DNA of 64,000 nt, from the IMG/VR virus record IMGVR_UViG_3300034158_000001; one strand, given 5' to 3'. This document shows positions 13,888 through 50,633 of this stretch, piece by piece. How positions within the stretch are numbered: the stretch's first letter is position 1; each line of letters begins with the position of its first letter. A program made the translations under genes and the position numbers. The notes beneath the pieces are model-generated. The model was not told the DNA's origin, did no database searches, and was given only the letters and a program-made list of their open reading frames with translations. The DNA is from an uncultured virus (IMG/VR IMGVR_UViG_3300034158_000001). Lineage: Duplodnaviria; Heunggongvirae; Uroviricota; Caudoviricetes.

Positions 13888-14078
13888 ATAACCTCCTTAT
13901 GTCTAAAAGTTATCTGGTATATCTCGTAAGGCAACTCATGCAGTGTCTGCCTCCAGCTAAGAATCCAGACATTGTGATTTAGCACAGAATACACTTCACC
14001 GTCCCAGCCACCCATCTTCTCGCGTGGCTTCTCTTTGTACGCACACCAAGTGCCACACGGATGTTGGGCGATCCACAT
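13884..14078 (-). CDS. Hypothetical protein
   Basis: 64-aa operon ORF. Confidence 0.55.
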   Translation of the reverse strand: MWIAQHPCGTWCAYKEKPREKMGGWDGEVYSVLNHNVWILSWRQTLHELPYEIYQITFRHKEVM

Positions 14079-17118: not shown

Positions 17119-17146
17119 ATAGTATCACGGTATCTCCAATTGTCAA
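17119..17146 (-). promoter_or_regulatory. Promoter TTGACA-N16-TACTAT (leftward)
   Basis: Direct reading; one half of a divergent pair. Confidence 0.7.
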
Positions 17147-17159
17147 GCTATGATTTATA

Positions 17160-17188
17160 TTGACTTTCGGAGTTTGTGGTGGTAGGAT
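17160..17188 (+). promoter_or_regulatory. Promoter TTGACT-N17-TAGGAT driving ncRNA copy 1
   Basis: Direct reading; predicted TSS ~17195 coincides with the first RNA stem. Confidence 0.7.
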
Positions 17189-17195
17189 GTAAAAG

Positions 17196-17481
17196 CTGAT
17201 GGAGAGAAATGTCGAATGCACTCACCGGCCATCAGGATCAAGCCTATGAAGAGGAAGCTACTGGGCAAGCTGAGTTCTAATCTGATTAAAGCGTAGCGAC
17301 GACACCGAAAGGTGGAATGATCAGAATCTGACGCACCCGCGTCTCCAGCCTGTGCTGGCCGAATGCAATCTCAATCTACGAGGTGCAGGGAAGATAGAAC
17401 CAAGGAAGGTCTAGGCGACTAATAATCGTATGGCTTTCCTTGGGACAGTTCTATCTTCCGATACAAAACTCATCTACGAGA
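17196..17481 (+). ncRNA. Putative large structured ncRNA, copy 1 (family unknown to me)
   Basis: Homologous to 50040-50323, with conserved single-stranded motifs and compensatory stem changes. Confidence 0.75.
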
Positions 17482-17577
17482 TAGATCAAGAGCATATAAC
17501 AAACACATACAACCATACTTAACATACTAATACTTAAGGAGATTGTGTGAAATAATACTTTACAGAAGGAACATAAT

Positions 17578-17775
17578 ATGAGTCGATGCAAGTGCTGCGA
17601 CGTACCACTGAGTAATAATGACAGTCCTGCGTGGAATAAGCTGGCGAATAAAGAGGAAGACCTCTGTAGCTGGTGCAGGAATCTTGTGTATAATTCGTAC
17701 ACAGAGCGTGAGTACGTGTGCGGAAGGTATCCAGTTGATGGGTTGACTGGACCGACACCAGTACAAAGTCAATAA
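17578..17775 (+). CDS. Small zinc-binding protein
   Basis: CKCC...CSWC motif; AAGGA RBS. Confidence 0.65.
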   Translation: MSRCKCCDVPLSNNDSPAWNKLANKEEDLCSWCRNLVYNSYTEREYVCGRYPVDGLTGPTPVQSQ

Positions 17776-17801: not shown

Positions 17802-17829
17802 TTGACATACTGTGCAATCATGATAGAAT
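17802..17829 (+). promoter_or_regulatory. Promoter TTGACA-N16-TAGAAT
   Basis: Direct reading. Confidence 0.75.
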
Positions 17830-18268: not shown

Positions 18269-18344
18269 GAGACGCAGACCGATCGGTGTAGGTATCGACC
18301 TTTTAAGTCGAGTTTGCTTGGTTCGATTCCAAGGCGTCCCACCA
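18269..18344 (+). tRNA. tRNA-Lys(TTT), atypical
   Basis: TCGAC ct TTT aa GTCGA arm; GTTCGATTC T-loop; CCA; A2-C71 mismatch. Confidence 0.8.
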
Positions 18345-18349
18345 AATAT

Positions 18350-18439
18350 AGCGGATTGGCAGAGAGGCTTAATGCAACGCTTTGCTAAAGCGTCGGCCCA
18401 GAAATGGGTCCGTAGGTTCGAATCCTACATCCGCTACCA
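18350..18439 (+). tRNA. tRNA-Ser(GCT)
   Basis: ACGCT tt GCT aa AGCGT arm; long variable arm; CCA. Confidence 0.9.
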
Positions 18440-18561
18440 GAATGATCGTGTCGCTCACGGTATGACAAACACTAGACAGTGAGGGTTCTGCTGTCTCTTC
18501 ATGGAGTGGTATTGAGGCCATTCATTGGGGTAAGAGTCCCCACAGGCAACCTCTAAATTTT

Positions 18562-18655
18562 GGGTAGTAATGCAGCGGGGTTGGTCCTGCGACTAGTCTT
18601 GAAAACTAGGTTCTGGCGTGAGCCGGATGGGGTTCGACTCCTCTGCTGCCCGCCA
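18562..18655 (+). tRNA. tRNA-Ser(TGA), 8/4 fold
   Basis: CTAGT ct TGA aa ACTAG arm; 8-bp acceptor, 4-bp T stem; G73; CCA. Confidence 0.85.
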
Positions 18656-18673
18656 AACATTGAAGGAGATACA

Positions 18674-19231
18674 ATGATTTATCTTAAGTGGTTTGTACTG
18701 GCTATCTTGGATTTACTGCTGACACTCACTGTATTGGTTGCCGCACCTATCATTGCACTCTTCACAAGGGAACAGGCTTATGGAAAGCCTGAGTATACTT
18801 GGGGCTGGCTGTGGGGCACATACGACAACCCACCTCAAGGTGACGAAGGTTATGTAGCTAAGCGTGCAATGTTCTTAAACGCGACAACAGGGATCAAAGG
18901 TTATGTGAACCGTGTAATGTGGATGTTCAGAAACCCTCTTTATGGGTTCTCTCGACGTGCAGCATTGTCTTACAGAGACACATACACAATCGTAACAACT
19001 GGAAATCCTGATATCAGCGACAAGTACAAGATTCCAGGAAGTATGACAACAAAACTGTATGACGGCAAGAAGCTTATCGGCTTTGAGTACTACCTTATCA
19101 AGCCTTGGTCTGAGACAAAAGACCTTCGTATGAGACTCGGATGGAAGATCACAACAGAGAAGTTTGCCTTAAACGGTTTCGCTCCTCTGGTTGTTACTGC
19201 CAATCCGCTTGATGGCTACGGTAATGACTGA
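18674..19231 (+). CDS. Hypothetical membrane-anchored protein within the tRNA cluster
   Basis: AAGGAG RBS, N-terminal TM helix, W..TYDNP..GD and WMFRNP motifs. Confidence 0.75.
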   Translation: MIYLKWFVLAILDLLLTLTVLVAAPIIALFTREQAYGKPEYTWGWLWGTYDNPPQGDEGYVAKRAMFLNATTGIKGYVNRVMWMFRNPLYGFSRRAALSYRDTYTIVTTGNPDISDKYKIPGSMTTKLYDGKKLIGFEYYLIKPWSETKDLRMRLGWKITTEKFALNGFAPLVVTANPLDGYGND

Positions 19232-19336
19232 CAGAATACTCCTGAAGCTTCAAGCGCCTTGGGAATATGTCGTATAACCAACATACGACTTGACGCTCAG
19301 GAGACAGCGTGCTATAAATGTCTCCCACGAATTAAG

Positions 19337-19411
19337 GGGTCTTGATTGTGATAGCAGCATGCTGGCCTCCAAAGCCATGCGGACTGGGAGCGTAACCTAG
19401 ATGGCCCGCCA
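19337..19411 (+). tRNA. tRNA-Trp(CCA), atypical T-loop
   Basis: TGGC ct CCA aa GCCA arm; CTGGG agcgtaa CCTAG T-arm; GCCA end. Confidence 0.7.
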
Positions 19412-19417
19412 AACAAT

Positions 19418-19492
19418 GCTGGTATGGTGTATTGGATGCACAAGGGTCTTCTAAGCCCTCAAGGGTTGGTTCGAATCCAACTACCAGCACCA
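19418..19492 (+). tRNA. tRNA-Arg(TCT)
   Basis: AGGGT ct TCT aa GCCCT arm; canonical T-arm; CCA. Confidence 0.9.
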
Positions 19493-19582
19493 TATGTGCA
19501 AATAGTTTTAAATAAACGCTTGACAGATTAGATTTGTCGTGTTTTAATACTCATATGAATCAAACACAAAGGAGAGATACAG

Positions 19583-19705
19583 ATGGCAAAGTATTACGAT
19601 GCAACTAAAGAACACGCTCCGGTTGACAAGACACGCTTGAAAGACAGCAAAGGTCGTCACCCAAACAAGAATAAACAGGGCAAGCCACCAAGCGTGGTAA
19701 GCTAA
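19583..19705 (+). CDS. Small basic protein (40 aa)
   Basis: MAKYYDATKEHAPVDKTRLKDSKGRHPNKNKQG...; AAGGAG RBS; TTGACA promoter at 19520. Confidence 0.6.
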   Translation: MAKYYDATKEHAPVDKTRLKDSKGRHPNKNKQGKPPSVVS

Positions 19706-19747
19706 ATGAGACAAGAAATTGATCTTGGCTTCGTATAAAGATTTAAT

Positions 19748-19824
19748 GCACCACTCGTCTACGAGGTTTAGGATATGAGGTTTTCACCCTCATGAACGGG
19801 GTTCGAGTCCCCGGTGGTGTACCA
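19748..19824 (+). tRNA. tRNA-Glu(TTC)
   Basis: TGAGG tt TTC ac CCTCA arm; CCA. Confidence 0.9.
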
Positions 19825-19939
19825 CATTTGAATGATAAATACGTCCAGCTAATCGGCGGAAGGAACAACTCAACAGCCCATTGAAATAGATGGTATTGAG
19901 CCTAAGATGAAAGTCACCGATATTCATTCAAAGCTACAT

Positions 19940-20015
19940 GGCTTATGTTTCCTCTGGGAAGGAAGGCACACTGTCTATGTGTCAGTTGAGGGTTCGAATC
20001 CCTTATAGGTCGCCA
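19940..20015 (+). tRNA. tRNA-Asp(GTC)
   Basis: GCACA ct GTC ta TGTGT arm; G73; CCA. Confidence 0.85.
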
Positions 20016-20019
20016 ATTT

Positions 20020-20093
20020 GCCCTTTTAGTATATTGGTATTACTCGGCCTTTGTAACGCTGAAAACGCAGTTCGATTCTGTGATGGGGCACCA
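20020..20093 (+). tRNA. tRNA-Thr(TGT)
   Basis: Loop tt TGT aa; GCC.../...GGC acceptor; CCA. Confidence 0.8.
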
Positions 20094-20192
20094 AATTTGA
20101 CAGCACCAACGCCTTATGGTATTGTCCGTCACTTAGCTAGGCTTGGCTTATCAGGTAGAAGCCCGTACCTCCAAAACCTGATATAAATTTTT

Positions 20193-20267
20193 AGTTGCTT
20201 GGCCGATTGGATTAGGCAAAGGTCTACGAAGCCTTTTAGAGTGGTTCGATCCCACTAGTGACTACCA
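20193..20267 (+). tRNA. tRNA-Arg(ACG)
   Basis: AAGGT ct ACG aa GCCTT arm; CCA. Confidence 0.88.
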
Positions 20268-20273
20268 AACAAT

Positions 20274-20347
20274 TGCTCGTTAGCATAGTGGTAATGCAGT
20301 CGGCTGATAACCGTCTTAGGGGTGTTCAATTCACTCACGAGCAACCA
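20274..20347 (+). tRNA. tRNA-Ile(GAT)
   Basis: CGG ct GAT aa CCG arm; TGCTCGT/ACGAGCA acceptor; CCA. Confidence 0.85.
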
Positions 20348-20478
20348 AATTCTGCGTAAACCAGAAACAAGATTCCTTTTACGGCTTTTAGAAGGGATCG
20401 GGAAACAAAGGGGTAAGAACTTTAGCGAGTTCGAATGTCTCAGACTAAGCCGTTGAAAGACAACGCGAATACTACAGG

Positions 20479-20554
20479 TGCGGTCAGGTGAACTGGTGGA
20501 CACAGCAGCCTCATAAGCTGAATAAGGTGAGTTCGATTCTCACGTCCGCAACCA
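20479..20554 (+). tRNA. tRNA with CAT anticodon (Met or Ile2)
   Basis: CAGC ct CAT aa GCTG arm; CCA. Confidence 0.85.
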
Positions 20555-20623
20555 AACACCGTGCTCCCCACGGGTACAGCCAGATAGAGTGTGCTGTATA
20601 AATATAGTCTCTATCAGAATTAT

Positions 20624-20700
20624 AGGTAATGATCTCACCGGGCGTGGGTCGCTGGCTGTTAACCAGCAGATGGGAGGTTCGAGTCCTCTATTACCTGCCA
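20624..20700 (+). tRNA. tRNA-Asn(GTT)
   Basis: GCTGG ct GTT aa CCAGC arm; G73; CCA; unusual D-arm. Confidence 0.85.
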
Positions 20701-20706
20701 AACAAA

Positions 20707-20795
20707 GCGTCGTGATTTATGGGGACTGGGATTCCCGCTGGGCTGTAAACCCGGTGTCCAAGACTGCGTGGTTCGATTCCGACCATGACGCACCA
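20707..20795 (+). tRNA. tRNA-Tyr(GTA), atypical
   Basis: CTGGG ct GTA aa CCCGG arm; long variable arm; CCA. Confidence 0.8.
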
Positions 20796-20816
20796 ATTAA
20801 GATGTAGAAGATTTAA

Positions 20817-20890
20817 CTAGATGAAGCGTTACGGTAGCGTACTGGCTTTGGAAGCCTGTGGCGGTGGTTCGACTCCACCCATCTAGACCA
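20817..20890 (+). tRNA. tRNA-Pro(TGG)
   Basis: Loop tt TGG aa; CTAGATG/CATCTAG acceptor; CCA. Confidence 0.88.
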
Positions 20891-20894
20891 ATTT

Positions 20895-20968
20895 GGGCTT
20901 GTGGTAAAACGGGAATACGCGGTCTTTGCAAGTCCGAGTTCAGGGTTCGACTCCCTGCTGGTCCACCA
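20895..20968 (+). tRNA. tRNA-Ala(TGC)
   Basis: Loop tt TGC aa; G3:U70 identity pair; CCA. Confidence 0.85.
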
Positions 20969-20985
20969 AATAAGGAGTGCTTAAT

Positions 20986-21141
20986 ATGAGAGTCCGAGTA
21001 AAACAAACCAAGAAGAAGTTTGCTATGATGCCCTGCGGGTGTTGTGAGAGGGTTTATTACAAGGAGAAGAGTCTGGATAAGCAGACCCTCAAAGAAGCAC
21101 TTGAAGAAATAAGCAATACGCTTGACTGTGACGTCGTGTAG
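20986..21141 (+). CDS. Small protein (51 aa) overlapping the 5' end of tRNA-His
   Basis: TAAGGAG RBS; MRVRVKQTKKKFAMMPCGCCERVYY... Confidence 0.55.
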   Translation: MRVRVKQTKKKFAMMPCGCCERVYYKEKSLDKQTLKEALEEISNTLDCDVV

Positions 21142-21201
21142 TCTGGGACTACCTTCCGGTTGTGACCCGGTTGTTAGAGATCGAAACTCTGCGTCACCCC
21201 A
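21128..21201 (+). tRNA. tRNA-His(GTG), atypical
   Basis: CCGG tt GTG ac CCGG arm; C73; CCA; no encoded G-1. Confidence 0.75.
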
Positions 21202-21207
21202 AATTAT

Positions 21208-21292
21208 GGGCCAGTGGTGGAACTGGTATACACAGCAGTCTTAGAAACTGCCGCCGAAAGGATTGAGGGATCGTGACCCTCTTGGCCCACCA
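21208..21292 (+). tRNA. tRNA-Leu(TAG)
   Basis: GCAGT ct TAG aa ACTGC arm; variable arm; CCA. Confidence 0.9.
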
Positions 21293-21299
21293 AATTATG

Positions 21300-21374
21300 T
21301 CCTTCTTGCCTGAGCGGCTAGGGTGCTGATTGCAAACCAGTAATAGATCGGTTCAACTCCGATAGAAGGCTCCA
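21300..21374 (+). tRNA. tRNA-Cys(GCA)
   Basis: Loop tt GCA aa; U73; CCA. Confidence 0.8.
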
Positions 21375-21379
21375 AACAT

Positions 21380-21455
21380 GCGTGATTCGTATAGAGGTCT
21401 AATACTCTCGGCTTCCACCCGAGTAACCAGGGTTCGACTCCCTGATCCCGCACCA
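21380..21455 (+). tRNA. tRNA-Gly(TCC)
   Basis: CTCGG ct TCC ac CCGAG arm; CCA. Confidence 0.88.
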
Positions 21456-30033: not shown

Positions 30034-31317
30034 ATGACCGTTCTTACGGATATTATCGAAATCAACATCAGCCGCGAAACTGCTGCTGTTGCCCAAACCA
30101 ACTTCAACGTGCCCCTGTTCGTTTCCGCTCACACAAAGTTTGCTGAAAGAGCACGATCGTACTCAAGCCTTGCCGCTGTTGGTGAAGACTTCGAACCTAC
30201 TGACAGTGCTTACATTGCTGCTCAGAAGTTGTTCGGACAAGCTCTTACACCAGCTCGCATTAAAATCGGACGCAGACTAGTTCCAAGCTCCACTGTTAAC
30301 GTAAGCACAGTTGCTACCGGTCCCTACACTCTGACCATCAACGACACACCTTTCTCGTATGTAGCTAGCGGAAGCGACACTGCAATCTTGATCGCTGCTG
30401 GACTTAAAACTGCCTACAACGTAACCCCTATCACTGGTGTTACAGTAACTGACAACCTTGATGGCTCTCTGACTGTAGCTTCTGCAATTGGCTACTCTTT
30501 GAAAGTGTCTACAAACATGTCTCAAGCTAACAGCCCGTCTGTAGAATCTTGGGCAACAACAATCAACGAAATTACCCTAGTGGACAACACTTGGTATGCT
30601 GTGATGATTGAGTCTCACCTTGAGGCTGACATTCTGACTGTAGCTGCTCAGATTGAAGGAATGAAGAAAGTATTCGCTACATCTTCTCAGGCTTCTGCCG
30701 TTAAGACAACAGGAACAACTGACATCTTCTCTCAATTGAAAGCTCTGGCTTACCAGCGTACATTTGGTATCTACTCTGCAACCGCAGACACTGAATTCCC
30801 AGAAGCTGCTTGGGTTGGCTACCAACTTCAAGAACAACCGGGTTCCAACACCTGGGCGTACAAAGCTCTGTCTGGTGTCACTGTTAGCGTTCTGAGCGAT
30901 ACAGAGTCGACAAACGTGCACAACAAGAGTGCCACAACATACGAAACCGTTGGTGGCCTAAGAAGCACAATCGGAGCGAAGATGTTTGGTGGTGAGTGGA
31001 TCGACGTTATGATCTTTGTTGACTGGCTAGAACAGCGTATGAAGGAACGTCTGTGGAGCCGTATGGCGAACAGCAAGAAAATCCCTTACACATCTGCTGG
31101 TACTGCCATTATCGAAGCTGAGATTCGTGCACAGCTCAATGACGGTATTCGTGTTGGTGGTCTGGCTAACAGTCCTTCCCCAACTGTATCCGTTCCTGAC
31201 GTGCTGTCTGTTTCACAAGTTGCACGTGCTAACCGTATCTTCGAAGGCATTACATTCGAAGCACGTCTGGCTGGAGCTATCCACTTCGTCAAAATCGCAG
31301 GGACTGTAACCGTTTAA
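30034..31317 (+). CDS. Tail sheath protein (DUF3383-like)
   Basis: PGSNTWAYK, GEWID..DWL, KIPYT and LAGAIH motifs. Confidence 0.9.
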   Translation: MTVLTDIIEINISRETAAVAQTNFNVPLFVSAHTKFAERARSYSSLAAVGEDFEPTDSAYIAAQKLFGQALTPARIKIGRRLVPSSTVNVSTVATGPYTLTINDTPFSYVASGSDTAILIAAGLKTAYNVTPITGVTVTDNLDGSLTVASAIGYSLKVSTNMSQANSPSVESWATTINEITLVDNTWYAVMIESHLEADILTVAAQIEGMKKVFATSSQASAVKTTGTTDIFSQLKALAYQRTFGIYSATADTEFPEAAWVGYQLQEQPGSNTWAYKALSGVTVSVLSDTESTNVHNKSATTYETVGGLRSTIGAKMFGGEWIDVMIFVDWLEQRMKERLWSRMANSKKIPYTSAGTAIIEAEIRAQLNDGIRVGGLANSPSPTVSVPDVLSVSQVARANRIFEGITFEARLAGAIHFVKIAGTVTV

Positions 31318-48793: not shown

Positions 48794-49941
48794 TATTCCT
48801 CCTTCAGCAAGTATGCGTTGCTGATAGCTTTGAACGAGAAGTCACGCTTAGTGCTCTTGTAGACGGAGCCTTCACGGAACTTACCTTTGACGCCACTTGG
48901 ACCTTCAGCACGAAGCAGAAGCTCAGCAACAGTCGGAGCTTTGAGCACGCCAGTGTAGTTGACTGGGACGTGTTTAACACCCTGGTCAGTACAGAATTTG
49001 ATGCGTTCAGCAGTAAGCATGTAGCGCTGTTCATCAATCAGGAAAACGTCGTAGCAGAAGAATGTGTTATTGTCCAGACCTTCAAAGTTCTTCTGGATAG
49101 ACGGACCACACATTTCACCCTGAATGGCGATGTTACGGCCATCACGGCGAATAGCTTCAATCAGTCCAGCTTCTGTCACCATCTGAGTGAAGGCATTGTC
49201 GTCCTTCTTGATCACACGCTCCCACTTGCAGCGATGTACAGCCATGCCGCGATTCCACCACTGATCAAACCAGCTACGAATAGTAGAAACCAGAGAACGT
49301 TTTTCGTCCTCCATCCGAAAGCCCACGTTACGGCTAGCCACACCAGCCACCCCGTCACGAACAAACGCAGTGAGAGAGCTTCCGTCCAGCTTAAAAGATT
49401 CTTCAAATTCTTCTCCATCGGCTACAGCCTTCAAGTATAGGTTAGTGATGTTCTGTACGCGAGTCTGATCAGTCTTTGGTACAAACTTAGGGAAACCCAA
49501 TGCAGACTTACCAGTCTTGACGCCAGTGCCACCAGTGTTATTCATGCTGGCTTCTTCAGCCTTCTCATACTTGACAACACCCAAGAAGTCTGTCATGTCA
49601 TAGCCAACCTCTGCGTTAAGGCCAGTTACAGACAATGGGATCAAGTAGCCTTGAGAAAGTTGCTTACGCAGCTTCATGGTTTTTACACGAGCGTGGGTAC
49701 GTCCATCTACGTTGTGGAGCAGTTTAGAACTCCAGTTGGCTGCATCAGCGAAATAAGGACGCTCTGTGTCTAGCAGAGAATCTACCTCAAAATATACAGC
49801 TTTGGTGAGTGCGGGCTCGTACAAACCCTTCTGCACGACCACCTGCCAGCCGCCAATGAGAGCCAGCTCAATGCGGTCAGCACCTTCAATAGGAAGTAGT
49901 TGATCGATCAGTACGATACGAGCGAGGGAACGTTCAGCCAT
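48793..49941 (-). CDS. RNA ligase, Rnl2/DRB0094 family
   Basis: N-terminal OB module (PIEGADRIE..GWQVVV), KTDQTRVQN, KLDGSS, QGE, REGSVYK and FKAISN.YL motifs. Confidence 0.88.
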   Translation of the reverse strand: MAERSLARIVLIDQLLPIEGADRIELALIGGWQVVVQKGLYEPALTKAVYFEVDSLLDTERPYFADAANWSSKLLHNVDGRTHARVKTMKLRKQLSQGYLIPLSVTGLNAEVGYDMTDFLGVVKYEKAEEASMNNTGGTGVKTGKSALGFPKFVPKTDQTRVQNITNLYLKAVADGEEFEESFKLDGSSLTAFVRDGVAGVASRNVGFRMEDEKRSLVSTIRSWFDQWWNRGMAVHRCKWERVIKKDDNAFTQMVTEAGLIEAIRRDGRNIAIQGEMCGPSIQKNFEGLDNNTFFCYDVFLIDEQRYMLTAERIKFCTDQGVKHVPVNYTGVLKAPTVAELLLRAEGPSGVKGKFREGSVYKSTKRDFSFKAISNAYLLKEE

Positions 49942-49972
49942 TTTTAAATCTCCTTGTGTTTTGATGTGGTGG

Positions 49973-50032
49973 AGTCTACAGGATGTTGGAATCGTGTCAA
50001 CCACTTGACAGAAAAACTTTTCATGGTAATCT
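49973..50032. promoter_or_regulatory. Back-to-back promoters: leftward TTGACA-N16-TAGACT and rightward TTGACA-N16-TAATCT
   Basis: Direct reading; rightward TSS ~50039 coincides with the first stem of ncRNA copy 2. Confidence 0.7.
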
Positions 50033-50039
50033 GCACACA

Positions 50040-50323
50040 TCGCAGGAGAGACATGTCGGGCGAAAGCCTCCCTCACCGGCCTGCGGGAGTACACCCCATG
50101 AAGAGGATGCTGTAGGGGTCACTGAGGTTGAATGAGAGAACAGTGCAGCGATGACCTCTATAGAGGGAAGGCTCTCAATCTATAGCGTCCCATGACGCCG
50201 ACTTGCGATCTCAATTTTGGATAGCAAAGGATAAACCTCAAGGCATGTCGAGGCGATTCAGTTCGTATGGCAAGCCTTGGGATAGGTTTATCTCGACAAT
50301 ACGAAACTCATTTTGGATAGGAG
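50040..50323 (+). ncRNA. Putative large structured ncRNA, copy 2
   Basis: Homologous to 17196-17481, with compensatory changes. Confidence 0.75.
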
Positions 50324-50330
50324 CAAAGAT

Positions 50331-50633
50331 ATGTGTCAAGTGGTAAATAGGAACCACATGTCTGTGAACATGAATGATCCTGACATTGTGTATATAGGAA
50401 GGGGCAGCATCTGGGGCAATCCTTTCCACATAGGTGGCTCTGGCAGACGTACTCGTGAACAGGTGATAGAAATGTACAGAAAATATCTGTGGGAGCGCCT
50501 ACGTGTTGGGTATTTCACACTTGATATGCTGAAAGCTCTTGACGGGAAGCGACTTGCTTGCTATTGTGCTCCTAAGCAATGTCATGGCGACATTATAAAA
50601 CGAGCCGTCCGGTGGGCGAAGGAGCAACAGTGA
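50331..50633 (+). CDS. DUF4326-like protein
   Basis: VYIGRGSIWGNPF, L.GKRLACYCAPKQCHGD motifs. Confidence 0.8.
   Translation: MCQVVNRNHMSVNMNDPDIVYIGRGSIWGNPFHIGGSGRRTREQVIEMYRKYLWERLRVGYFTLDMLKALDGKRLACYCAPKQCHGDIIKRAVRWAKEQQ

What the first reader, a model, noticed from the sequence alone, without database searches (positions are those of the whole stretch)
50040..50323. Second copy of the ncRNA abuts the RBS of the first gene of the rightward replication arm
Seen: copy 2 starts right after TTGACA-N16-TAATCT and has an extra GGC-GAAA-GCC hairpin inserted in its first domain, the kind of tolerated insertion typical of structured RNAs. Its last element, CTC attttggatag GAG, includes the GGAG Shine-Dalgarno of the DUF4326 gene (ATG 50331). 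The loop segment TGAGGTT can pair with GATCTCA internally, while the equivalent TGAGTT in copy 1 best matches the distal AACTCA. Inference: the RNA may switch conformation and act in cis as a leader. However, copy 1 lies ~95 nt from an unrelated gene, which fits a gene-independent function better.
Basis: partly seen in the sequence, partly recalled or inferred. Interest (0 to 1): 0.8.

Follow-up and report, generated by a model that had tools for sequence, protein, structure and literature searches.

The report
Twin structured leader RNA of phages
This is one of two copies of a large, intricately folded RNA that many Pseudomonas viruses make at the very start of two of their transcripts; it is real, belongs to no catalogued RNA family, and what it does is still open.

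Summary
Window 50040-50323 (+) is copy 2 of a ~290-nt RNA; copy 1 is at 17187-17486 (+), and these are the only two matches in the window. On a sequence-only alignment of 19 homologues, 48 of 79 pairs show compensatory changes and 88.7% of cells pair, against 34-44% when the partners are slid. This includes a pseudoknot. Rfam 15 gave no match. The family occurs in Otagovirus-, KIL- and Pakpunavirus-type Pseudomonas phages, usually twice per genome, and in more distant viral contigs. PAK_P3 lacks it. The first helix starts just after a sigma-70 promoter, and no + strand terminator-like site was found. The genes behind it differ, and a ribosome site abuts the RNA in only 8 of 36 members. It is therefore physically a leader but not gene-specific. 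The most striking feature is a 20-26-nt segment before the last long hairpin that recurs after it. The two copies change together in all 36 members. My best guess, at about one in three, is that the RNA re-pairs with the DNA strand it was copied from. This scan noted the same family earlier on two other genomes.

The parts
49973..50000 (-). Leftward promoter-like site (TTGACA-16-TAGACT), back to back with the RNA's promoter. It drives the RNA ligase cassette.
   Evidence: 10 of 12 matches. A TGTCAA just upstream of the RNA's -35 is visible in most of the promoter contexts printed (its True/False column is unreliable). ORF 48796-49941(-) is an RNA ligase (PF09414 and PHA02142 OB).
50005..50032 (+). 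Promoter of copy 2: TTGACA, 16 nt, TG-n-TAATCT (extended -10). Predicted start near 50039.
   Evidence: By a strict pattern the same promoter type is found in 27 of 36 members, with 14-17 nt from the -10 to the invariant GAGAnATGTC.
50040..50086 (+). P1 (50040-46 with 50080-86). It encloses the invariant AGAGACATGTC, the variable hairpin P2 (GGGC-GAAA-GCCT, 50058-69) and the invariant CTCACCGG.
   Evidence: P1 is 98.4% paired, and 5 of its 7 pairs change on both sides.
50094..50149 (+). P3 (50094-97 with 50115-18), whose loop (GCTGT, 50109-13) pairs with GCAGC 50145-49. This is pseudoknot P4.
   Evidence: helix 3: all 5 pairs change on both sides and 98.9% of cells pair. At least 7 paired sequence variants are listed.
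50119..50132 (+). Joining segment J (CACTGAGGTTGAAT). It can pair with the 5' half of R1 (8 pairs in copy 2) or of R2.
50133..50177 (+). P5 (50133-38 with 50172-77), enclosing the P4 3' strand and hairpin P6 (CCTC-TATA-GAGG, 50155-66).
   Evidence: helices 5 and 6: 92.5% and 100% paired; 5 of 7 and 3 of 4 pairs are compensatory.
50185..50198 (+). P8 hairpin GCGTC-CCAT-GACGC. The optional hairpin P7 of copy 1 is absent here.
   Evidence: helix 8: 100% paired and 5 of 5 pairs compensatory. Alignment.
50203..50227 (+). P9 hairpin carrying repeat R1 (GCGATCTCA-ATTTTGGATAG). The variable core X is 50214-50224.
50226..50296 (+). P10, the long three-part hairpin with the conserved TAGGC...GTATGGC...CCTTGGGA internal loops.
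   Evidence: helices 11-13: 85-100% paired and 13 of 27 pairs compensatory.
50300..50323 (+). Repeat R2 (TACGAAACTC-ATTTTGGATAG; X = 50310-50320), running into the GGAG of DUF4326.
50331..50633 (+). DUF4326 gene. It is the first ORF behind copy 2.
   Evidence: Orthologues sit behind the copy-2-type element in KoPa-4 and PAK_P1.
50310..50339 (-). Antisense promoter-like site (TTGACA-18-CAAAAT) overlapping R2 and the start codon. Not shown to be conserved.
   Evidence: 10 of 12 matches.
17160..17486 (+). Copy 1 with its promoter (TTGACT-17-TAGGAT, 17160-17188). R1 core is at 17374-82 and R2 core at 17472-80. A CA-rich spacer of about 95 nt follows, then the zinc-ribbon ORF 17578-17775.

Best explanation
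What is shown. Copy 2 belongs to an uncatalogued family of ~290-nt pseudoknotted RNAs of Pseudomonas myoviruses and more distant uncultured phages. The RNA sits directly behind a host-type sigma-70 promoter, with its first helix at the predicted transcript start. No + strand terminator-like site was found behind it, so it is the 5' leader of whatever follows. The genes that follow differ, and the contact with the DUF4326 ribosome site is confined to one lineage.

What is inferred, at about one in three. The RNA acts at its own locus. A 20-26-nt segment displayed in hairpin P9 (R1) is repeated just after the long hairpin P10 (R2), which brings the two together in space. Each element has its own repeat sequence. 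No complementary stretch exists in the RNA. Where the two copies differ by a transition, R1 usually has G where R2 has A. The simplest partner for R1 is therefore the strand complementary to R2, that is, the template DNA strand just transcribed. That would form or hold an RNA:DNA hybrid at the 3' border of the element, much as the upstream segment of ColE1 RNA II does (recalled from memory). The consequence would be priming of DNA synthesis, or keeping the start of the unit open.

The joining segment J, which can pair with R1 or with R2, would set which state forms.
For: Structure: on a MAFFT-only alignment, 48 of 79 pairs are compensatory and 88.7% of cells pair, against 34-44% when slid, with 0 of 500 shuffles as high. 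The pseudoknot P4 has at least 7 paired variants.

Promoter at a fixed distance in 27 of 36 members. No + strand terminator-like site after either copy.

A contig from a library recorded as RNA-Seq (X8, record 11, 3115 nt) covers the Pakpunavirus element from 21 nt inside it through R2 and on into downstream sequence.

Gene independence.

Repeat:
- All 36 distinct members show it. The longest exact shared block averages 9.3 nt, against 5.8 when R1 of one member is paired with R2 of another and 5.2 after shuffling. Gapped alignments extend it to 20-26 nt.
- The core sequence differs between members and between the two copies in this window (ATCTACGAG versus ATTTTGGATAG).
- Close relatives differ at the same position in both copies, for example AGCG/AGTG, ATTTA/ATTTG/ATCTG, CTC/CTG/CCC.
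- No consistent complementary partner was found within the element or 60 nt upstream. No further copy on either strand was found in the 64-kb window.
- Transition mismatches over the whole aligned repeat: 28 are wobble-compatible for R1-RNA pairing with anti-R2 (26 G/A, 2 T/C) and 13 are incompatible. By my eye, in and next to the variable core the count is about 11 to 1, in different lineages.
Against: - Nothing shows a hybrid, a primer or an origin here.
- GC skew changes at both copies, but it tracks gene orientation and gene class, so it is uninformative.
- The invariant unpaired nucleotides, two GNRA-capped hairpins and the pseudoknot look more like an RNA that binds a protein or ligand than like a plain pre-primer.
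- The 28:13 count is not phylogenetically independent. Several G/A cases are one fixed difference in the conserved 5' part of the repeat, and G in R1 might instead serve hairpin P9.
- Copy 2 has no AT-rich unwinding stretch behind it.
- PAK_P3 does without the RNA.
- Some Pakpunaviruses place a second promoter about 7 nt after R2, which fits several models.
Confidence: 0.33

Rival explanations
1. Free-standing structured RNA. The leader is cut from the primary transcript, for example in the CA-rich spacer after copy 1, and acts in trans as an RNA or RNA-protein particle on a host or phage factor. This would resemble other large phage-borne RNAs found near tRNA genes.
For: - Highly conserved unpaired stretches, GNRA loops and a pseudoknot.
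- Independence from the downstream gene.
- Some Pakpunaviruses and L090/L107 have a fresh promoter right after R2, so downstream genes need not rely on this transcript.
- Copy 1 lies about 800 nt upstream of a 16-tRNA array.
Against: - No + strand terminator-like site after either copy.
- The RNA-library contig runs on past R2.
- The RNA-seq-based annotation of PAK_P4 lists a promoter before the element but no ncRNA there. Its supplement lists a single phage sRNA at 91948-92050, elsewhere in the genome.
- It does not explain why R1 and R2 stay identical with an element-specific sequence.
Confidence: 0.25
2. RNA that modifies the polymerase that made it (processive antitermination, as HK022 putL/putR do; recalled from memory). 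RNA polymerase starting at these two promoters would then read through terminators in the units behind.
For: It starts at the transcript's first nucleotides behind strong promoters in 27 of 36 members. There are two copies per genome at the heads of two rightward blocks. There is no + strand terminator-like site and the gene behind it varies.
Against: - Further promoters follow within 0.3-0.6 kb (17802-17829; promoter_12 of PAK_P4). A second promoter comes directly after R2 in several Pakpunaviruses.
- The leftward arms of the same back-to-back promoters have no such RNA.
- The RNA is about four times the size of put, as I recall it.
- It does not explain the repeat.
- An earlier follow-up of this scan found nothing for it either.
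Confidence: 0.12
3. Translational leader or riboswitch. Alternative pairing of J with R1 or R2 hides or frees the DUF4326 ribosome site.
For: GGAG follows R2 directly in copy 2 and in 8 of 36 members. The minimum-energy fold of copy 2 pairs TGGATAGGAG with CTCAATCTA. J has lineage-specific 6-8-bp matches to R1 or R2.
Against: - 28 of 36 members have no adjacent ribosome site.
- Downstream genes are unrelated.
- DUF4326 is a dispensable cassette that begins exactly after R2.
- J-R pairing is lost in CTG and CCC variants, while the identity of R1 and R2 is kept.
- The fold z-score of copy 2 alone is only -1.86.
Confidence: 0.1
4. Two identical hairpins as cut sites. An endonuclease cuts R1 and R2 at the same place, and the phage RNA ligase joins the halves. 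This would excise or circularise P10, following the logic of HAC1/XBP1 or tRNA-intron splicing (recalled from memory).
For: R1 and R2 each form a small hairpin of the same sequence flanking P10. Identical stems would let halves of the two sites cross-pair. An RNA ligase gene lies next to copy 2 here and within 1.5 kb in Bitten, ventosus and UAVern.
Against: - The ligase is not adjacent in PPSC2 or KoPa-4.
- Loop identity is not explained.
- No joint between R1 and R2 appeared in the four runs laid (table 5). Contigs drop rare forms, so this is weak.
- An earlier follow-up judged the ligase cassette not to be one machine.
Confidence: 0.05

Closest known systems
ColE1/pMB1 RNA II pre-primer (recalled from memory; not tested with a tool)
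   Same: A long folded transcript from a constitutive promoter. An upstream RNA segment is thought to pair with template DNA further downstream. At the DNA level that looks like a direct repeat, where identity matters rather than the sequence itself.
   Different: This is a lytic phage, not a plasmid. There are two copies per genome. The core is far more conserved and is pseudoknotted. No antisense RNA I equivalent has been shown, and no origin has been mapped. The transcript also serves as mRNA.
HK022 putL/putR antiterminator RNAs
   Same: Two copies per phage genome, each just behind a promoter and acting without regard to the gene behind.
   Different: The size and fold are unrelated as far as I recall (about 70 nt with two stem-loops, against ~290 nt with ten helices and a pseudoknot). 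Read-through was not tested. Extra promoters downstream weaken the need for it.
GOLLD and ROOL large phage-associated RNAs (PMC12286853; seen only in the search listing and abstract)
   Same: Large ornate RNAs of unknown function that are often phage-borne. The association with tRNA genes is recalled from memory.
   Different: No Rfam match to these or any other family. This RNA is much smaller. It sits directly at a transcription start and carries the R1/R2 repeat.
5'UTR-derived ncRNA candidates and ncRNA1/ncRNA2 of phage PAK_P3 (PMC10914365; passages read)
   Same: Small RNAs from leaders or 3' UTRs of a related Pseudomonas myovirus, found by ONT-cappable-seq and northern blot.
   Different: PAK_P3 has no match to this family (0 candidates). 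Its syntenic spot holds a plain GC-rich hairpin. The published coordinates (31147-31308, 85248-85458, 86307-86426) gave no nhmmer hit to this family.
Riboswitch or T-box type leaders
   Same: A conserved, structured 5' leader with a possible alternative pairing next to a ribosome site in copy 2.
   Different: The downstream genes are unrelated. The ribosome site is adjacent in only 8 of 36 members. There is no Rfam hit at E up to 10.

Membership tests
Any Rfam 15 family | Covariance-model score at or above the gathering threshold, or at least E up to 10 | tested here: not met
   Whole window at gathering thresholds: only 10 tRNA matches. Window 49900-50450 at E up to 10: 0 matches.
   Copy 2 scores 225.1 bits (E 2e-68) and copy 1 scores 271.3 bits. 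Both were in the seed alignment, so this is partly by construction. Sequences outside the seed score 28-290 bits.
Riboswitch / translational leader | The same aptamer sits upstream of functionally related genes | tested here: not met
   The downstream units are a zinc-ribbon ORF plus tRNAs, DUF4326, a second promoter, an SF2-type helicase, or small membrane-like ORFs.
Riboswitch / translational leader | An expression platform that hides or frees the ribosome site, supported by covariation | tested here: inconclusive
   A ribosome site lies within 32 nt in 8 real cases of 36. Only a single-sequence fold pairs it.
HK022 put-type antiterminator | Lies in the transcript just behind an early promoter, with two sites per genome | tested here: met
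HK022 put-type antiterminator | Put fold, and suppression of downstream terminators in cis | not testable with these tools
   No put model or sequence was available. Read-through needs a reporter assay.
ColE1 RNA II-type pre-primer | An upstream RNA segment matches downstream non-template DNA, so that it can pair with the template strand | tested here: inconclusive
   The R1/R2 repeat is present in 36 of 36 members, with a G/A bias that fits wobble pairing (28 against 13 overall). Other readings of the repeat remain possible.
ColE1 RNA II-type pre-primer | Persistent hybrid, RNase H cut and DNA synthesis from the RNA 3' end; antisense control RNA | not testable with these tools
   The only related observation is a - strand promoter-like site at 50339-50310, with no conservation shown.
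tRNA / tmRNA-like | Called by ARAGORN or by the Rfam tRNA/tmRNA models | tested here: not met
   No call at either element.

The most novel reading that the evidence does not exclude
A new class of phage RNA whose conserved fold presents an element-specific guide (R1) to the template strand of its own 3' border (R2). This would set up an R-loop that primes or licenses phage DNA replication at two sites per genome. It would be an RNA II-like pre-primer with a ribozyme-grade architecture in lytic, therapy-relevant Pseudomonas phages.
Probability: 0.2. Interest if true: 0.9.

Novelty: categorically new. Interest (0 to 1): 0.78.

Why it matters
PAK_P1/Pakpunavirus-type and Otagovirus-type phages are used and studied for therapy and biocontrol. 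Even so, their replication origins and early control circuits are unmapped, to my knowledge.

A ~290-nt pseudoknotted RNA is kept in two copies per genome across several genera and reaches into uncultured phages. That makes it one of the larger uncatalogued bacterial-virus RNAs.

Its internal repeat evolves in concert and is specific to each element. This gives a sharp genetic test: change R1, change R2, or change both. If the RNA pairs with its own template DNA, it would supply the missing origin or primer of these phages. If it does not, it is still a new structured RNA class awaiting a partner.

Tried and rejected
- **Rfam.** Gathering scan of the whole window and E up to 10 on 49900-50450: nothing but tRNAs.
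- **Complementary partner of the repeat core within the RNA.** The best ungapped runs of 5-11 nt fall at inconsistent places.
- **Extra copies of the core in the window, either strand.** None at 0-1 mismatch, apart from chance-level look-alikes at 14077 and 18557 and in the D-arm of tRNA-Glu at 19754. My estimate of chance expectation for these is about 0.1-0.3.
- **GC skew as an origin marker.** It changes at about 17 kb and about 50 kb, but it follows gene strand and gene class.
- **Translational bypass from R1 to R2.** The spacing is 96 nt in copy 2 and 98 nt in copy 1, and the frames do not connect to the downstream ORFs.
- **Target-site duplication of an inserted hairpin element.** The repeats do not abut the P10 stem, being 6 and 12 nt away.
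- **Iterons or a recombinase core.** The core differs between the two copies of one genome.
- **RsmA/CsrA sponge.** GGA motifs are not obviously enriched. This was judged by eye with no computation.
- **Own genome.** It is not held. The nearest record is a 40.7-kb fragment with the same two copies.
- **PAK_P4 data.** The record and supplement have no ncRNA at the element.
- **Sequencing runs.** All are Logan contigs, and most have small shares. In X8 nothing covers L152:1399-1521, the back-to-back promoter region, and the contig over the element begins at 1522. Lack of cover proves nothing.
- **Literature searches** found no description of this RNA. One search was badly framed and uninformative. 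The candidates of PMC10690425 are 29-151 nt long. I did not search its supplementary files, so a fragment of this RNA may be listed there.
- **Rows dropped.** L006 and L017 from the first pattern scan were chance matches. Sixty-four of 80 loci from the looser pattern had no full-length model match. One duplicate among 37 matches was removed.

Full report
**The observation**

- The promoter is TTGACA (50005-10), a 16-nt spacer with a TG at 50024-25, then TAATCT (50027-32).
- A helix begins at 50040.
- A GGC-GAAA-GCC hairpin lies at 50059-68.
- The last element is CTC-ATTTTGGATAG-GAG (50307-23). Its GGAG lies 7 nt before the ATG at 50331.
- That ORF is DUF4326 (PF14216, E 1.2e-22).

The divergent neighbour at 48796-49941(-) is an RNA ligase (PF09414 plus the PHA02142 OB domain).

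A second copy lies at 17187-17486. blastn links the two only weakly, with two pieces at 74% and 72% identity. A covariance model finds exactly these two in the 64-kb window, at 271 and 225 bits.

**It is a real structured RNA**

I collected homologues from phage records and IMG/VR contigs. I dropped two chance pattern matches, L006 and L017. I aligned 19 sequences with MAFFT alone (A2) and wrote a structure by hand.

On that alignment:
- 88.7% of 1413 cells form standard pairs, against 34-44% when the 3' partners are slid by 1-3 columns.
- 48 of 79 pairs change on both sides.
- None of 500 shuffles reaches the observed values.

The fold has these parts:
- P1, closing a 5' domain with the invariant AGAGAnATGTC and CTCACCGG.
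- P2, a variable hairpin that often carries a GAAA cap.
- P3, whose loop pairs with the internal loop of P5 to make pseudoknot P4. All 5 of its pairs are compensatory, and at least 7 paired variants occur.
- P5 and P6.
- P7, which is optional and absent in copy 2.
- P8.
- P9, a small hairpin.
- P10, a long three-part hairpin.

Single-sequence folding is unremarkable for copy 2 (z -1.86) and better for copy 1 (z -3.52). The evidence is comparative.

Rfam 15 has nothing. The whole window at gathering thresholds gives only tRNAs, and 49900-50450 at E up to 10 gives no match.

**Distribution**

- blastn finds copy-2-like sequence in 31 Pseudomonas phage records.
- It finds copy-1-like sequence in 181 records at 336 places, most of them Pakpunavirus-type P. 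aeruginosa phages with two places each.
- With the model, KoPa-4, Bitten, ventosus and UAVern have two matches each, and PAK_P3 has none.
- The nearest held record (a 42% fragment), PAK_P1 and another complete 98-kb genome have two each. A complete 84-kb genome and a 69% fragment have one each.
- A looser pattern scan returned 80 loci that were fetched. Sixteen of them carry full-length matches, six of them distant at 28-78 bits.
- The window's own genome is not held.

**Where it sits**

By a strict pattern, 27 of 36 distinct members have TTGAC(A/G/T)-N16/17-TAnnnT, mostly with an upstream TG. The distance from the -10 to the invariant GAGAnATGTC is 14-17 nt. Three more members are near misses, and the six distant ones show no such promoter. 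P1 therefore begins within a few nucleotides of the predicted start.

The promoter is one arm of a back-to-back pair with the arrangement TGTCAA-N4/5-TTGACA. No terminator-like site lies on the + strand after either copy.

In a library recorded as RNA-Seq (X8), one 3115-nt contig covers the Pakpunavirus A-type element from 21 nt inside it through R2 and runs on downstream. Contigs show neither transcript ends nor levels, and DNA may be present in such libraries.

The RNA-seq-based annotation of PAK_P4 marks a promoter in front of the element but no ncRNA. Its supplement lists one phage sRNA, elsewhere in the genome.

**What lies behind it**

- Copy-1-type elements are followed by a CA-rich spacer of about 95 nt and a small zinc-ribbon ORF. 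That ORF is conserved from this phage to PAK_P1 and KoPa-4. More promoters and the tRNA array follow.
- Copy-2-type elements are followed by DUF4326 in this phage, KoPa-4 and PAK_P1. In other Pakpunaviruses that gene is missing. Contigs of three runs replace about 310 nt by 50-60 nt directly after R2. The homologous IMG/VR sequences diverge immediately after ATCTGCATA and carry a new promoter there.
- A distant member precedes an ORF that looks to me like an SF2-type helicase. Another precedes small ORFs that look membrane-like.
- One search flagged a Shine-Dalgarno plus start within 32 nt of the repeat in 9 of 36 members. One of these (L090) is inside a promoter, leaving 8.
- PAK_P3 keeps a weak homologue of the zinc-ribbon ORF behind back-to-back promoters, but it has a plain GC-rich hairpin instead of the RNA.

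The RNA is therefore physically a leader, but it is not tied to any gene.

**The unexplained core: a repeat that evolves in concert**

In every one of 36 distinct members, a segment just before P10 (R1, displayed in hairpin P9) recurs just after P10 (R2).

- The longest exact shared block averages 9.3 nt, with a minimum of 5. The average is 5.8 when R1 of one member is compared with R2 of another, and 5.2 after shuffling.
- Gapped alignment extends the repeat to 20-26 nt. It consists of a semi-conserved 5' part (…ACGA(T/A)CTCA) plus a variable core.
- The cores include ATCTACGAG, ATTTTGGATAG, AGCGTCATGAGA, AGTGTCATGAGA, ATTTACAC, ATTTGCAC, ATCTGCAC, AGTTCCAC, ATTGTGGA, ATCCCCATGAGA, ATCAGAATGAG and CCATCCGGCATTA.
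- Close relatives differ at the same position in both copies, and even CTC becomes CTG or CCC in both.
- A constant one-base offset between R1 and R2 is kept, which argues against simple homogenisation.
- No complementary stretch exists at a consistent place in the RNA. No other copy exists in the window.

Because each element has its own core, including the two in this window, the partner must be encoded by the element itself. The only element-specific complement is the opposite strand.

Transition differences are skewed. Over the whole aligned repeat, R1 has G where R2 has A 26 times, and T where R2 has C twice. The reverse cases number 6 and 7. By my reading of the same output, the count within and beside the variable core is about 11 to 1, in separate lineages. 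That is the direction expected if R1, as RNA, pairs with the complement of R2, giving G·U or G·T wobbles. These counts are not phylogenetically corrected.

The joining segment after P3 (…CTGAG(G)TT…) has:
- 6-8 contiguous pairs with the 5' half of R1 in copy-2-type and Pakpunavirus A-type members (14 of 36);
- 6-8 with R2 in copy-1-type members (9 of 36);
- fewer than 6 with either in 14 of 36.

Changes that look compensatory occur between lineages, for example TGAGGTTG/CGATCTCA against TGAGTCG/CGACTCA. Two alternative long-range helices are plausible. However, CTG and CCC variants keep R1 equal to R2 while weakening this pairing, so it cannot be the reason for the repeat.

**Most likely mechanism, and rivals**

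*Shown:* a conserved pseudoknotted RNA at the 5' end of two transcripts, with varied genes behind it and an internal repeat that evolves in concert.

*Inferred, about one in three:* R1 pairs with the template DNA strand of R2, the two being brought together by P10. This would form or stabilise an RNA:DNA hybrid at the element's 3' border. By analogy with ColE1 RNA II and the promoter-linked origins of T4 and T7 (all recalled from memory), the hybrid would prime or license DNA synthesis or keep the unit's start open.

*Against this:*
- No hybrid or origin is shown.
- Skew is uninformative.
- The ornate conserved core suggests a protein or ligand partner.
- PAK_P3 lacks the RNA.

*Rivals:*
- A processed, trans-acting RNA or RNA-protein particle (about 0.25).
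- A put-like modifier of RNA polymerase (about 0.12).
- A translational leader for DUF4326 (about 0.10).
- Endonuclease-plus-ligase excision of P10 (about 0.05).

**Known relatives and novelty**

- Nothing in Rfam matches.
- The published PAK_P3 ncRNAs and 5'UTR candidates lie at other places, and PAK_P3 lacks this family.
- Seven literature searches found no description.
- A catalogue of viral RNA candidates lists only motifs of 29-151 nt. I did not search its supplements.
- Earlier notes of this scan describe the same family on two other genomes. One proposes pairing with its own DNA. The other tested and did not support a put-like role. It is a lead, not independent evidence.

I rate the finding as a new RNA class of unknown function, with an unusual and testable internal feature.

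Noticed in passing
window 49973-50032 and 17119-17188: Both copies sit behind back-to-back promoters whose -35 hexamers form a near-palindrome (TGTCAA-N4/5-TTGACA). The arrangement is conserved in most relatives.
   Followed up: partly
window 17487-17577: Copy 1 is followed by a CA-rich, G-poor spacer of about 95 nt (…AACAAACACATACAACCATAC…), and relatives have a similar one. It could be an Hfq/Crc, Rho or RNase E site.
   Followed up: no
L152:1797-2106 (PAK_P1, 28.5 kb) and L007/L014/L003/L013: The DUF4326 gene is present or absent among Pakpunaviruses. The left breakpoint lies directly after the repeat core of R2, and genomes without the gene have a sigma-70 promoter there.
   Followed up: partly
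L001:281-420 (PAK_P3 84280-84420): The syntenic locus in PAK_P3 has the promoter pair and a weak homologue of the zinc-ribbon ORF. A simple 13-bp GC-rich hairpin stands in place of the 290-nt RNA.
   Followed up: partly
window 19754-19766: The D-arm of the phage tRNA-Glu (CTCGTCTACGAGG) resembles the copy-1 repeat (CTCATCTACGAG) with one mismatch. A similar look-alike of the copy-2 repeat lies at 18552-18571, next to a tRNA-Ser. Both are near chance level.
   Followed up: partly
window 50310-50339 (-): A promoter-like site on the opposite strand (TTGACA-18-CAAAAT, 10 of 12 matches) overlaps R2 and the DUF4326 start. A terminator-like hairpin on the same strand lies inside P10 (50254-50235).
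   Followed up: no
window 18269-21455: ARAGORN calls an array of 16 tRNA genes, where Rfam's gathering scan called 10. ARAGORN also calls a 768-nt 'tmRNA' spanning several tRNAs, which looks spurious.
   Followed up: no
window 48796-49941 (-): An RNA ligase gene (PF09414 plus the PHA02142 OB domain) forms a short reverse-strand cassette immediately divergent from copy 2. It is also near the element in Bitten, ventosus and UAVern, but not in PPSC2 or KoPa-4.
   Followed up: partly
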